Below, one piece after another: positions 9,001 through 12,000 of a DNA stretch of 64,000 nt. The stretch is from Escherichia coli O127:H6 str. E2348/69 (lineage in GTDB: Bacteria; Pseudomonadota; Gammaproteobacteria; Enterobacterales; Enterobacteriaceae). Position numbers: made by a program. Location of the stretch: the NCBI RefSeq assembly GCF_000026545.1, contig NC_011601.1; one strand, given 5' to 3'. How positions within the stretch are numbered: position 1 is the first letter of the stretch; every line of letters starts with the position of its first letter.

Positions 9001-12000
9001 CTACGTGATATCCCTAGCCCGTCTATCACAGACGTCCCCGTTGGGGTGAAATTCTTCGGCATGAAGGCACCACATCAGGGGGCTCCGATTGTCATCGACC
9101 AACCGAGCAGCTTCCTGGCTATCTCCGATCTGGTGGTTCGCGTTCTTGATGGCAAGATTTTCACCGAAGACAATGTTGACTGGAAAAAACTCACCAGTGG
9201 GTTACCACAAACAGCACCGGTCTCTGAGAACTCAAATGCAGTAGTTATTCAATACCAGGATAAACCGTACGTTCGCCTGAACGGCGGCGACTGGGTGCCT
9301 TACCCGCAGTAAGAACGAATAAATATCCTCCGGCATAGCCGGAGGTTTTTCAAATGCGCCTATAAGACTCTCTTACCTGCCGCGCCCTAACAGGCGCACA
9401 CGATCTGACATTTGCATCCAACTTCGTTACTTACGGCCCGTAAACGGGCTGCCCGGATAGGGAATCGATAACTGCTCTCCCATTTTATCCTCTTCAAGCT
9501 GGTGCTTTATGTAATCCTGTATCTTCGCCGTGTTCTTACCCACCGTATCGACGTAATACCCTCTGCACCAGAACTCCCTGTTCCTGTACTTGAATTTCAA
9601 ATCACCAAACTGCTCGTAAAGCATCAGACTGCTTTTCCCTTTCAGATATCCCATAAAGCCGGATACGCTCATTTTGGGCGGGATCTCCACAAGCATATGG
9701 ATATGATCTGCACAGCATTCAGCTTCCAGAATCCGTACACTTTTCCACTCACACAGCTTTCTCAAAATACAGCCTATTGCTCTACGCTTCTCTCTGTAGA
9801 ACACCTGTCTTCGGTATTTTGGCGCAAATACTATGTGATATTTACAGTTCCATCGGGTGTGCGCTAAGCTCTTTTCGTTCCCCATTGGGACCCCCTTTTG
9901 ATTTCTTGTTTGACACTTGCAGTTGCCAGACCGCAAGGTGTTTTAACAAATCAAAAGGGGTTTTAATAACTGGCTCAAAGCTGAAAGCTTTCCGGACCCC
10001 CCAGCCTAGCTGGGGGTTTTCTGTGCACAAAAAGGCCGCAGAGTTTCCCCCTGCGGCCTGATCCGGGCGCAAATTGCCATTACGGCAGCCTGACGCCCGC
10101 ATGACACGTTACTTCCGCTTATTCAGCCAGTTCACGATCATACTGGCAAGAATGCCAGCAATGACCGGAGCCGCTAAATCATGCCAGAAGGCCATGCCCA
10201 GTTCTGCGAGCGTCATATAGCCGCCTGTGTTGTAATGACAACGTTTCGCGGCTATTCTTGAGTGGTCTAGGTTCAAGATTAGCCCCCGTGATGTTGTCAG
10301 GTGCATACCTGCAACGTGCGGGGGTTTTCTCTCTCCAGCAACCAATGCCACCAGGGATTAAGCCCCCGCAACATTGCGCCTCACCGGAACCTTTCCGGCT
10401 TGCCGCTGATTCTACGACTGTTTTTCTGCTCCGGAATCCATCACTTCTTCACTCTGTGCTGCGCATTCCGCAGAATATTATCCGCTTGCAACCGTTGCAT
10501 TTTTCTTACGAAAAAGGCCGCAGAGTTTCACCTCTGCGGCCTGGTCCGGGCGCAAATTGCCATTACGGCAGCCTGGCGCCCGCATGACACGTTACTTCCG
10601 CTTGTTCAGCCAGTTCACGATCATACTGGCAAGAATGCCAGCAATGACCGGAACCGCTAAATCATGCCAGAAGGCCATGCCCAGCTCTGCGAGCGTCATA
10701 TAGCCGCCTGTGTTGTAATGACAACGTTTCGCGGCTATTCTTGAATGGTCTAGATGCAAGAATGGCCCCCGTGATGTTGTCAGGTGCATACCTGCAACGT
10801 GCGGGGGTTTTCTCTCTCCAGCAACCAATGCCACCAGGGATAAAGCCCCCGCAACATTGCGCCTCACCGGAACCCTTCCGGCTTGCCGCTGATTTTACGA
10901 TTGCTTTTTGCCGTCAGCACCCGGCAATCTTCCTCATTGCGTGATGCCTTCCAGCTTAATTTCTTTATTTGCAATAGTTGCAGCTCATATCCGGGCTGAC
11001 TCCAGACTAGTAGTGAAATGCGCAATTTTGTAGAATTGCGCCTCCTCGCGACCTCCCCAGTGAATCTGTTGCCTCATTTTTTACATACTGCGTATTCGAC
11101 TTCTCCACCTGTTGCGCAAGAGAAACTGGGTTTATTCATTTTTGCGAGGCCGACTTCTTTCTGGACAGGACTTTATGCAGCACAACACACTACCGAAACA
11201 CGATCAGAAATTGCCGTTTACACGCTACGACTTCGGCTGGGTTTTATTATGCATAGGCATGGCGATTGGTGCCGGAACCGTGCTGATGCCAGTACAAATT
11301 GGATTGAAGGGAATTTGGGTATTTATTACCGCAGCGATCATTGCTTATCCTGCCACCTGGGTAGTACAGGACATTTATTTAAAAACCCTTTCTGAAAGCG
11401 ATTCCTGTAATGACTACACCGATATTATCAGTCATTACCTGGGGAAGAACTGGGGAATTTTCCTCGGGGTTATCTACTTTTTGATGATTATCCACGGGAT
11501 TTTTATCTACTCTCTCTCCGTGGTTTTCGACAGCGCCTCGTACCTGAAAACCTTCGGTTTAACCGATGCCGATCTTTCTCAATCTCTATTTTATAAAGTC
11601 GCCATTTTCGCCGTACTGGTGGCGATTGCGTCTGGTGGTGAACGATTACTGTTTAAGATTTCCGGGCCAATGGTGGTGGTCAAAGTGGGGATTATTGTCG
11701 TGTTCGGTTTTGCGATGATCCCGCACTGGAATTTCGCCAATATAACCGCCTTCCCGCAAGCCTCCGACTTTTTCCGCGATGTCCTGCTTACTATTCCATT
11801 TTGCTTCTTTTCCGCAGTATTTATTCAGGTACTTAACCCAATGAATATTGCCTATCGTAAACGGGAAGCGGATAAAGTACTGGCAACCCGGCTCGCGCTG
11901 CGTACCCACCGGATTAGCTATATCACGCTCATTGCGGTGATCTTGTTTTTTGCCTTTTCGTTTACCTTCTCAATTAGCCACGAAGAAGCCGTTTCTGCCT

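What the first reader, a model, noticed from the sequence alone, without database searches (positions are those of the whole stretch)
10031..10910. Tandem duplication of the ldr/rdl type I toxin-antitoxin unit
Two Ldr peptides (35 aa each, one A/V difference) lie in direct repeat units of about 482 bp, each with its own terminator hairpin and presumptive antisense Rdl region. The final 60 to 80 bp of the units differ, indicating an old or recombined duplication. My recollection is that K-12 has a single ldrD/rdlD unit at this locus and three tandem copies at a different locus, so copy number here appears strain-variable.
Basis: partly seen in the sequence, partly recalled or inferred. Interest (0 to 1): 0.45.

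Follow-up and report, generated by a model that had tools for sequence, protein, structure and literature searches.

The report
Two-copy ldrD/rdlD toxin-antitoxin array
This is a two-unit version of a well-known small toxin/antisense-RNA repeat of E. coli whose copy number between the genes bcsG and yhjV ranges from one to five among strains, so it is real but ordinary and already described.

Summary
The window is E. coli E2348/69. Between bcsG and yhjV lie two head-to-tail LDR-D units with a 482-483 bp period. Their 389/390-bp cores (10029-10417 and 10511-10900) are 96.2% identical. Each has an intact 35-aa Ldr toxin gene (Pfam Ldr_toxin, one A16V difference), a 66-nt Rdl antisense RNA above the Rfam threshold, both terminators and the promoter hexamers. 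The ~93 bp upstream of each core are only ~50% identical. The variation is not special to this strain. About 61% of 5,426 complete E. coli genomes carry the same inter-unit junction, and 39-40% are K-12-like with one unit. Among carriers, three or four units are commonest and the maximum is five. Two divergent Escherichia lineages share the junction, so the array is old. K-12's unit is a chimera of the first and last units of a BL21-type three-unit array, which points to collapse by unequal recombination. Variable copy number at this locus is published (BL21(DE3) has three pairs, K-12 one), and RefSeq annotates both toxin genes here. One residual point may be new: sequence diversity is about 8-fold higher in the Rdl 5' tail than in the rest of the unit, which may make units antitoxin-specific. 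That is untested.

The parts
10029..10417 (-). LDR-D unit 1 core: the whole predicted ldr transcription unit with rdl embedded on the opposite strand
   Evidence: 96.2% identical to 10511-10900. 97.0% identical to the K-12 LDR-D unit over 403 bp.
10033..10059 (-). ldr-1 intrinsic terminator (11-bp stem, 8 G-C pairs, followed by TTTTT)
   Evidence: Terminator scan.
10109..10216 (-). ldr-1 toxin gene, 35 aa, MTLAELGMAFWHDLAAPVIAGILASMIVNWLNKRK
   Evidence: ORF list. Pfam PF13940 Ldr_toxin 93.2 bits, cutoff 27. 34/35 identical to the LdrD NMR structure 5LBJ. RefSeq annotates it as ldrD, WP_001295224.1.
10230..10258 (+). Inferred rdl-1 promoter: TTGTAA (10230-10235), 17-nt spacer, TATTCT (10253-10258), 6 nt before the Rdl 5' end
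   Evidence: Read from the sequence. It lies in the least variable segment of the unit, pi 0.0136. Inferred, not mapped here.
10265..10330 (+). Rdl-1 antisense RNA, 66 nt: a 16-nt single-stranded 5' tail plus a terminator stem-loop. It is complementary to ldr-1 mRNA at -49 to -114 from the AUG.
   Evidence: Rfam RF01813 rdlD 90.4 bits, gathering score 50, full length. MFE fold -31.7 kcal/mol.
10297..10374 (-). 25-codon upstream ORF in the ldr-1 5' UTR (MLRGLNPWWHWLLERENPRTLQVCT, preceded by GGTGAGG). A candidate for the 'ldrX' leader ORF proposed in the literature.
   Evidence: ORF list. Conserved in K-12 LDR-A, B and D; frameshifted in C. The ldrX proposal is cited in PMC4147584. No Pfam match.
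10409..10414 (-). Inferred ldr-1 -10 hexamer TAGAAT. The predicted start near 10402 would give a transcript of about 374 nt.
   Evidence: Same hexamer and position as in K-12 LDR-D. TAGTAT occupies the same position in LDR-A/B/C. Inferred.
10418..10510 (.). Inter-unit spacer/junction, holding the -35 region of ldr-1. It is the diagnostic sequence of multi-unit arrays.
   Evidence: No homologue in the K-12 ldrABC locus or elsewhere in the window. Present in 3304/5426 E. coli genomes, 6993 places. 86-89% conserved in two other Escherichia lineages.
10511..10900 (-). LDR-D unit 2 core (yhjV-proximal unit)
   Evidence: Colinear with K-12 LDR-D through to yhjV at 97.3% over 754 bp.
10515..10542 (-). 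ldr-2 intrinsic terminator
   Evidence: Terminator scan.
10592..10699 (-). ldr-2 toxin gene, 35 aa, A16V variant
   Evidence: ORF list. Pfam Ldr_toxin 89.8 bits. RefSeq WP_000170747.1.
10713..10741 (+). Inferred rdl-2 promoter (TTGTAA, 17-nt spacer, TATTCT)
   Evidence: Identical to unit 1 at offset +483.
10748..10813 (+). Rdl-2 antisense RNA, 66 nt. It differs from Rdl-1 at RNA positions 7, 9, 15 and 17.
   Evidence: Rfam rdlD 82.9 bits. Fold -32.3 kcal/mol and mismatch list.
10780..10857 (-). 25-codon upstream ORF of unit 2 (MLRGLYPWWHWLLERENPRTLQVCT)
10892..10897 (-). Inferred ldr-2 -10 hexamer TAAAAT
   Evidence: Alignment. Inferred.
10901..10993 (.). Upstream flank of unit 2: a diverged counterpart of the spacer (50% identity), shared with the K-12 single unit

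Best explanation
The feature is a two-unit allele of a copy-number-variable tandem array of the chromosomal ldrD/rdlD type I toxin-antitoxin module (LDR-D), in its conserved position between bcsG and yhjV.

Each ~483-bp unit is a complete module. A weak promoter drives a ldr mRNA of about 374 nt on the minus strand. That mRNA has a ~185-nt leader, a 35-codon membrane-toxin ORF and its own terminator. From the opposite strand, inside the leader, a 66-nt Rdl RNA is made from its own promoter and terminator. Rdl is perfectly complementary to positions -49 to -114 of its own ldr mRNA.

Rdl pairs with the leader and so blocks toxin translation. Because it does not cover the ldr ribosome-binding site, the block is probably indirect, perhaps through the conserved upstream ORF. 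The duplex is cut by RNase III.

The array grows and shrinks by unequal homologous recombination between the ~390-bp cores. E2348/69 holds two units, most E. coli hold three or four, and K-12 has collapsed to one.

Shown here: the anatomy, family membership, synteny, population distribution and the chimeric structure of the K-12 unit. Taken from the literature on K-12: toxicity, repression by RdlD and RNase III cleavage. Inferred: the ldr start site and promoter, expression of both units in E2348/69, and the recombination mechanism.
For: Identity and synteny
- The window is 100% identical to three E2348/69 / O127:H6 assemblies.
- The gene order is bcsG - IS200C - ldr - ldr - yhjV.

Unit anatomy
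- Repeat and cores.
- Pfam Ldr_toxin at 93.2 and 89.8 bits against a cutoff of 27.
- 34/35 identity to the solved LdrD structure 5LBJ.
- Rfam rdlD at 90.4 and 82.9 bits against a gathering score of 50.
- Four terminators.
- Conserved -10 hexamers and upstream ORF across LDR-A, B and D.

Population
- The junction query covers >=80% in 3299/5426 genomes.
- The spacer is in 3304 genomes at 6993 places, median 2 and maximum 4 per genome.
- K-12-type contiguous single-unit configuration is in 2188 genomes.
- In 7 of 7 genomes inspected, units at the locus equal spacer places + 1: ST2747 2, 98206 2, BL21 3, Ecol_743 3, EC31 4, 2014C-3057 4, GMM060 4.

Age
- Two units with an 86-89% conserved spacer occur in Escherichia sp. 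E1V33 and in a divergent 'E. coli' lineage (bcsG 3' end 87-89% identical to E. coli).
- Single units occur in E. whittamii, Salmonella and Citrobacter.
- Separate 2-3-unit arrays occur in Klebsiella and Kluyvera.

Collapse in K-12
- The K-12 core is 100.0% identical to the BL21 unit 1 core, while its upstream flank equals that of BL21 unit 3.
- The single-unit strains K-12, EDL933 and A4 carry three different unit haplotypes.

Literature
- BL21(DE3) has three ldrD/rdlD pairs between bcsG and yhjV against one in K-12 (PMC5435950).
- ldr-rdl is tandemly duplicated and evolves by lineage-specific duplication (PMC2887945).
- ldr gene numbers differ among strains (PMC1635323).
- The RdlD/ldrD duplex is an RNase III substrate (PMC7373196).
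- RdlD overlaps the 5' UTR rather than the RBS, and the ldrX idea (PMC4147584).
Against: - No expression data for E2348/69 were available, so activity of both units is inferred from intact sequence elements.
- The -35 region of ldr-1 lies in the spacer and is unrelated to the one upstream of the experimentally studied K-12 unit. Neither unit has a good -35, and the consensus promoter scan found no site at all in 9900-11200, not even the rdl promoters.
- The copy-number proportions rest on BLAST place counts and a 40-row ranked sample, not on a full per-genome table.
- 66 genomes appear in both the single-unit and the spacer counts.
- Within Escherichia, units of one genome are no more alike than units of different genomes. 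Recent homogenisation is therefore not evident, and the recombination history is mosaic.
Confidence: 0.92

Rival explanations
1. A recent duplication private to the E2348/69 lineage: a new strain-specific event rather than an inherited array allele.
For: K-12 has one unit. Only E2348/69-lineage records match the full 1181-bp query at 100%.
Against: - The full-length match is lineage-specific only because of the adjacent IS200. The array part (query 90-1181) matches many unrelated strains at 98.8-99.9%, each with two annotated Ldr genes.
- The junction occurs in 61% of E. coli genomes and in two other Escherichia lineages.
- The two cores differ by 3.8%, and the spacer versus the flank by 50%.
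Confidence: 0.01
2. One of the two units is a decaying, non-functional relic, for instance the spacer-flanked unit 1 if its ldr gene lacks a working promoter. The strain would then effectively have one toxin gene and a spare antitoxin.
For: - The -35 region of ldr-1 differs entirely from that of the K-12-type unit.
- The BL21 paper mentions the three RdlD RNAs, not three ldr mRNAs.
- Decay does occur in arrays: GMM060 unit 2 has a shortened CDS.
- Antitoxin-only loci are common for another type I family, zor/orz (PMC11264685).
Against: - Both E2348/69 units keep the full ORF, RBS, -10 hexamer, upstream ORF and terminator. Unit 1 has TAGAAT, identical to K-12.
- All segments of the core outside the Rdl tail are conserved among 27 units, pi 0.014-0.06. 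That is not expected for a dead copy.
- The spacer itself is 95-100% conserved across E. coli.
Confidence: 0.1
3. The units are functionally diversified. Each Rdl preferentially recognises its own ldr mRNA through its variable 5' tail, so the array is a set of partly independent toxin-antitoxin pairs rather than redundant copies.
For: - Among 27 units from 11 E. coli genomes, the 21-nt patch 10261-10281 (the Rdl 5' tail plus 4 nt upstream) holds 11 of 61 variable columns (binomial P = 0.0004).
- Its nucleotide diversity is 0.23, against 0.014-0.034 in the other large segments, with 10 haplotypes.
- Rdl-1 and Rdl-2 differ only at positions 7, 9, 15 and 17. The predicted tail-target duplex energy falls from -34/-37 kcal/mol (cognate) to about -20 (cross).
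- Precedent: the recognition domains of Sib RNAs lie in the hypervariable regions, and Sib RNAs repress only cognate ibs mRNAs (PMC2943612).
Against: - The remaining 49 nt of Rdl-1 and Rdl-2 are identical, and full-length cross duplexes are still very stable (-124 vs -139 kcal/mol).
- Units within a genome are not significantly more different in the tail than random unit pairs (3.93 vs 3.44 differences, permutation P = 0.10). EC31 units 1 and 2 share a tail.
- The patch may simply be the only unconstrained stretch of the unit.
- No experiment on Rdl cross-specificity was found.
Confidence: 0.35

Closest known systems
LDR-D (ldrD/rdlD) of E. coli K-12 MG1655, between bcsG and yhjV
   Same: - Same locus and orientation.
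- 97% DNA identity over the unit.
- The toxin differs by 1-2 of 35 residues.
- Same Rdl position in the leader, -10 hexamer, upstream ORF and terminators.
   Different: - K-12 has one unit and E2348/69 has two, separated by a 93-bp spacer absent from K-12.
- The K-12 unit is a chimera of first-unit core and last-unit flank.
- E2348/69 also has an IS200C between bcsG and the array.
Three-unit ldrD/rdlD array of E. coli BL21(DE3) (PMC5435950)
   Same: Same locus, same 483-bp period, same spacer. Published as three toxin-antitoxin pairs between bcsG and yhjV.
   Different: Three units rather than two. The order of unit haplotypes differs: E2348/69 unit 1 is closest to BL21 unit 3, at 98.2%.
LDR-A/B/C array of K-12 (kdsA-chaA)
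   Same: Tandem head-to-tail ldr/rdl units of the same architecture. The homologous region is the same ~390-bp transcription unit.
   Different: - Different locus.
- 535-bp period.
- About 81-82% DNA identity to LDR-D.
- The toxins belong to the LdrA/B group.
- The inter-unit segments are 97% identical to one another and unrelated to the LDR-D spacer.
ibs/sib and zor/orz tandem type I toxin-antitoxin loci
   Same: Small hydrophobic toxin plus cis-antisense RNA, duplicated in one intergenic region, with strain-variable copy number (PMC2887945; PMC11264685). The variable regions of Sib RNAs set cognate specificity.
   Different: Unrelated sequences. Sib overlaps the ibs ORF and its translation start, whereas Rdl overlaps only the leader.
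hok/mok/sok
   Same: Stable toxin mRNA with a long leader. A short, unstable antisense RNA with a 5' single-stranded tail. A leader ORF proposed to couple translation (PMC4147584; PMC1635323).
   Different: Described as analogous, not homologous. The Rfam 'sok' model matches the ldr leader only below threshold: 26.5-29.3 bits against a gathering score of 59.

Membership tests
Ldr/Rdl (LDR) type I toxin-antitoxin | 35-aa hydrophobic Ldr toxin | tested here: met
   Both peptides match Pfam PF13940 full length (93.2 and 89.8 bits, cutoff 27). Unit 1 is 34/35 identical to PDB 5LBJ LdrD.
Ldr/Rdl (LDR) type I toxin-antitoxin | Cis-encoded Rdl antisense RNA of about 66 nt on the opposite strand | tested here: met
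   Rfam RF01813 matches full length at 10265-10330 (90.4 bits) and 10748-10813 (82.9 bits), gathering score 50.
Ldr/Rdl (LDR) type I toxin-antitoxin | Rdl overlaps the ldr 5' UTR, not the RBS or start codon | tested here: met
   By coordinates, the Rdl complement spans -49 to -114 relative to the ldr AUG in both units.
Ldr/Rdl (LDR) type I toxin-antitoxin | Long direct repeat organisation (units of about 0.5 kb, head to tail) | tested here: met
   Period 482-483 bp, cores 96.2% identical.
Ldr/Rdl (LDR) type I toxin-antitoxin | Orthology with LDR-D (position between bcsG and yhjV) | tested here: met
   Synteny with K-12 and colinear alignment at 97%.
Ldr/Rdl (LDR) type I toxin-antitoxin | Independent promoters and terminators for ldr and rdl in each unit | tested here: inconclusive
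   All four terminators were found. The -10 and -35 hexamers for rdl and the -10 for ldr are conserved. The consensus scan calls no promoter, the ldr -35 is poor, and no start site was mapped.
Ldr/Rdl (LDR) type I toxin-antitoxin | Toxin kills or arrests cells when overproduced, and Rdl represses ldr translation | not testable with these tools
   Known for K-12 LdrD/RdlD only (reviews PMC4147584; PMC8309996).
hok/sok-like leader-ORF coupling | Conserved leader ORF overlapped by the antisense RNA | tested here: inconclusive
   A 25-codon ORF with an SD-like GGTGAGG is present in both units and in K-12 LDR-A, B and D, but is frameshifted in C. Rdl overlaps its 3' part, not its start. Coupling cannot be tested.
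hok/sok-like leader-ORF coupling | Match to the Rfam sok/hok leader model | tested here: not met
   RF01794 gives 26.5 and 29.3 bits against a gathering score of 59.
Sib/Ibs-like cognate discrimination among paralogous units | The recognition element coincides with a hypervariable region, and paralogues in one genome differ there | tested here: inconclusive
   The hypervariable patch in the Rdl 5' tail is real (P = 0.0004, pi 0.23). The within-genome excess is not significant (P = 0.10). The recognition role of the tail is untested.

The most novel reading that the evidence does not exclude
The tandem units may not be redundant. The Rdl 5' tail and its target in the ldr leader (10261-10281 and 10744-10764) form a hypervariable recognition element kept diverse among array members. 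Under this reading each Rdl preferentially silences its own ldr, as in Sib/Ibs. Array expansion and contraction would then change the number of independently controlled toxins rather than just gene dosage.
Probability: 0.3. Interest if true: 0.45.

Novelty: already known. Interest (0 to 1): 0.15.

Why it matters
It has little importance as a discovery. LDR repeats were defined as tandem toxin/antisense units, variable copy number at bcsG-yhjV is in print, and both toxin genes are annotated in this strain.

Three by-products are modestly useful:
- A census: about 40% of 5,426 complete E. coli genomes have one unit at this locus, and about 60% have two to five.
- K-12, the reference for all ldrD/rdlD experiments, carries a collapsed minority allele.
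- The Rdl RNAs are not annotated in the E2348/69 RefSeq record.

The concentration of diversity in the Rdl 5' tail gives a cheap, testable hypothesis about antitoxin specificity in a system whose mode of repression is still described as unknown.

Tried and rejected
- **Tandem Repeats Finder** on 9800-11200 returned nothing.
- **The consensus promoter scan** found no sigma-70-like site. It misses even the rdl promoter shared with K-12, so it says nothing about promoter absence.
- **NCBIfam** has no model matching the 35-aa peptides.
- **The founding paper** (Kawano et al. 2002, PMID 12123448) is not in the held library. The mapped ldrD start site could not be checked, so the ldr promoter and start are inferred.
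- **PMC7967276** gave only a 136-bp RdlD/ldrD overlap figure, and **PMC12133099** only lists the genes.
- **A search for work on RdlA/B/C cross-specificity** found nothing relevant.
- **Concerted evolution:** I looked for units of one genome being more alike than orthologues. This was not seen within Escherichia.
- **Selection for orthogonality within genomes** was tested by permutation and was not significant (P = 0.10).
- **Homology between the spacer and the LDR-A/B/C inter-unit segments** was tested and not found.
- **Assembly artefact** was rejected: three independent E2348/69 / O127:H6 assemblies are identical over the region.
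Full report
**What is there**

The window matches the chromosome of enteropathogenic E. coli E2348/69 (O127:H6) at 100% over the queried 1181 bp, in three independent assemblies. The annotated gene order is bcsE-bcsF-bcsG, an IS200C copy, two genes for 'type I toxin-antitoxin system toxin Ldr family protein', yhjV, a three-gene HipA-family module, and dppF.

The repeat finder reports a 300-nt direct repeat, 10048-10347 / 10531-10830, at 96% identity with spacing 483. Shorter flanking repeats have spacing 482-483. Alignment fixes a homologous core of 389/390 bp, 10029-10417 versus 10511-10900. 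The cores differ by 14 substitutions and one indel, which is 96.2% identity.

The next ~93 nt on the ldr-upstream side are 10418-10510 and 10901-10993. They share only 47/93 ungapped matches. That is still more than any of 2000 shuffles (maximum 45), so they look like strongly diverged copies rather than unrelated DNA.

**Anatomy of each unit**

On the minus strand each core contains the following elements.
- An intrinsic terminator, at 10033-10059 and 10515-10542.
- A 35-codon ORF, at 10109-10216 and 10592-10699. It encodes MTLAELGMAFWHDLA(A/V)PVIAGILASMIVNWLNKRK. Both peptides match Pfam Ldr_toxin end to end, at 93.2 and 89.8 bits against a cutoff of 27. The first is 34/35 identical to the LdrD peptide solved by NMR, 5LBJ.
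- A leader of about 185 nt. It holds a 25-codon upstream ORF preceded by GGTGAGG, at 10297-10374 and 10780-10857. This ORF is conserved in K-12 LDR-A, B and D. It is a candidate for the 'ldrX' leader ORF that the literature proposes as the real target of RdlD control (PMC4147584).
- A conserved -10-like hexamer: TAGAAT at 10409-10414 and TAAAAT at 10892-10897. LDR-A/B/C have TAGTAT at the same position. A start about 7 nt downstream would give a transcript of about 374 nt. This start is inferred, not mapped.

On the plus strand, Rfam's rdlD model matches full length at 10265-10330 (90.4 bits) and 10748-10813 (82.9 bits), against a gathering score of 50. Each match is preceded by TTGTAA, a 17-nt spacer and TATTCT, and each ends in its own terminator. 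Rdl is complementary to -49 to -114 of the ldr leader, so it does not cover the ribosome-binding site. Neither unit lacks an identifiable element. The one real difference is that the -35 region of ldr-1 lies in the spacer and is unrelated to that of ldr-2 and K-12. Both are poor matches to consensus.

**Comparison with K-12**

MG1655 has a single ldrD/rdlD between bcsG and yhjV, and ldrA/B/C with rdlA/B/C in tandem between kdsA and chaA. The K-12 unit aligns colinearly with unit 2 and on into yhjV, at 97.3% over 754 bp. It also aligns with unit 1 over 403 bp at 97.0%. The spacer has no counterpart in K-12 at either LDR locus.

**How common is this?**

I ran three searches of 5,426 complete E. 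coli genomes.
- A 171-nt query across the unit 1 / spacer / unit 2 junction is covered at >=80% in 3,299 genomes.
- The 82-nt spacer alone is found in 3,304 genomes at 6,993 places. The median is 2 and the maximum 4 per genome.
- A K-12 query that can be covered at >=80% only by a contiguous single-unit locus succeeds in 2,188 genomes.

I inspected seven genomes. In each, the number of units between bcsG and yhjV equals the number of spacer places plus one: ST2747 and 98206 have two, BL21 and Ecol_743 three, and EC31, 2014C-3057 and GMM060 four.

In the evenly spaced 40-row sample, 18 and 14 genomes have one, two and three spacers. This agrees with the overall mean of 2.1. Roughly, then, 39-40% of genomes have one unit, about 12% two, about 27% three and about 21% four, and a few have five. 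These proportions are estimates. 66 genomes fall in both the 'single' and the 'spacer' counts because of how BLAST pieces are joined. The E2348/69 state is one of the less frequent lengths of a common array. K-12 represents the minority single-unit state.

**Age and dynamics**

I scanned one genome per species for the conserved Rdl 3' stem and then used BLAST with flank probes.
- An ldr/rdl unit sits directly downstream of bcsG in Salmonella enterica subsp. arizonae and diarizonae, in several Citrobacter, in Pseudocitrobacter, in the Klebsiella oxytoca group and in Kluyvera.
- There is one unit in Salmonella, Citrobacter and E. whittamii.
- There are two or three in Klebsiella and Kluyvera. 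Their units are 96% alike but only 75% similar to those of Escherichia.
- There are two units with an 86-89% conserved spacer in Escherichia sp. E1V33 and in a divergent 'E. coli' lineage. In those lineages the bcsG 3' end is only 87-89% identical to E. coli.

The spacer-containing array therefore predates the diversification of E. coli. Amplification at this site has recurred in the family.

The K-12 core is 100.0% identical to BL21 unit 1, and its upstream flank is that of BL21 unit 3. This is what an unequal crossover that deleted 966 bp from a BL21-type three-unit array would leave. The exchange lies in the shared stretch of the ldr leader upstream of Rdl. The single-unit strains K-12, EDL933 and A4 carry three different unit haplotypes, which suggests independent collapses.

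Within Escherichia, units of one genome are no more alike than units from different genomes, and unit order is not conserved. For example, E2348/69 unit 1 is closest to BL21 unit 3. The history is mosaic, with no clear sign of recent homogenisation.

**What is already known**

- The NAR 2017 BL21(DE3) paper states that K-12 has one ldrD/rdlD pair whereas BL21(DE3) has three pairs between bcsG and yhjV (PMC5435950).
- Fozo et al. 2010 note that ldr-rdl is duplicated within one intergenic region. They conclude that type I loci evolve by lineage-specific duplication (PMC2887945).
- Faridani et al. 2006 tabulate different ldr gene numbers for K-12, CFT073, O157:H7, Shigella and Salmonella (PMC1635323).
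- The mechanism of repression by RdlD is still described as unknown or as hok/sok-like through ldrX (PMC8309996; PMC4147584).
- The RdlD/ldrD duplex is an RNase III substrate (PMC7373196).

I found no population-scale census for ldrD. The 2024 BLASTn study covered tisB, shoB and zor only. The finding is therefore a correct recognition of a known, annotated feature.

**The one point that may be new**

I compared 27 units from 11 E. coli genomes. The variable columns are not spread evenly.
- The 21-nt patch 10261-10281 holds 11 of 61 variable columns (binomial P = 0.0004). It corresponds to the single-stranded 5' tail of Rdl plus 4 nt upstream.
- Its nucleotide diversity is 0.23, against 0.014-0.034 in the coding region, terminator, rdl promoter, Rdl stem and upstream leader. 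There are ten haplotypes.

The two E2348/69 Rdl RNAs differ only at positions 7, 9, 15 and 17. The predicted energy of the 20-nt tail/target duplex falls from -34/-37 kcal/mol (cognate) to about -20 kcal/mol (cross).

In the Sib/Ibs family the recognition domains lie in exactly such hypervariable regions, and they confer cognate-only repression (PMC2943612). The 5' tail is also the recognition element of Sok (from established knowledge of hok/sok).

Three observations argue against selected orthogonality.
- The other 49 nt of the two RNAs are identical, and cross duplexes remain very stable.
- Units within a genome are not significantly more different in the tail than random pairs (P = 0.10). 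One genome has two units with the same tail.
- The patch may simply be the only unconstrained stretch.

I rate this reading at about 0.3.

**Verdict**

The feature is already known and of low interest.

Noticed in passing
window 9324-10028 (tnpA 9427-9885, minus strand; Rfam STnc490 9895-10018, minus strand): An IS200C copy is inserted between the bcsG stop codon and the terminator of ldr unit 1. The K-12 alignment breaks at 9323 and resumes at 10029. Only the E2348/69-lineage records and strain GPEC996 cover this part of the query. The Rfam STnc490 match (142 bits) is the structured 5' end of the IS200 transcript.
   Followed up: partly
window ~12463-14089, minus strand: A three-gene module lies between yhjV and dppF and is absent from K-12: a helix-turn-helix protein, a HipA N-terminal-domain protein and a HipA-family kinase. 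From memory this is the tripartite HipBST toxin-antitoxin system described in E. coli O127:H6. I did not check this against the literature.
   Followed up: no
window 10214-10367 and 10697-10850, minus strand: The Rfam model RF01794 ('sok antitoxin, CssrC') aligns over its full 157 positions to the ldr leader of both units, ending at the ldr AUG. The scores are only 26.5 and 29.3 bits against a gathering score of 59. ldr and hok loci are described as analogous, not homologous, so this sub-threshold resemblance is unexplained.
   Followed up: partly
window 10261-10281 and 10744-10764: Hypervariable patch at the Rdl 5' tail and its ldr leader target. Among 27 units from 11 E. coli genomes its nucleotide diversity is 0.23, against 0.014-0.034 in the other large segments of the unit, with ten haplotypes.
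   Followed up: partly
window 10265-10330 and 10748-10813; L003 (E2348/69 RefSeq record): The RefSeq annotation of E2348/69 lists both Ldr genes but no Rdl RNA, although both match Rfam rdlD well above threshold. The K-12 record does annotate rdlD.
   Followed up: yes
L061 (E. coli GMM060) 2664-2750: The second unit of a four-unit array has a shortened Ldr coding sequence (87 nt), so individual array members can decay.
   Followed up: no
L036 (contig NZ_JABWSY010000055.1, labelled Bacillus sp. EB106-08-02-XG196, 503 bp): This whole 503-bp, low-coverage contig is an E. coli LDR-D core/spacer/core junction at 96-97% identity. It is almost certainly E. coli contamination in a Bacillus assembly.
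   Followed up: no
L029, L043, L044 (Klebsiella oxytoca group); L053, L056 (Kluyvera); L022, L049 (Salmonella arizonae, diarizonae); several Citrobacter loci: ldr/rdl units directly downstream of bcsG are conserved across Enterobacteriaceae. Klebsiella and Kluyvera carry independent tandem arrays of 2-3 units with a 477-480 bp period, and Salmonella and Citrobacter carry single units.
   Followed up: partly
L060 (E. coli Ecol_743) 416-2095: In this strain bcsG, next to a three-unit array, is annotated as a pseudogene with an internal stop.
   Followed up: no
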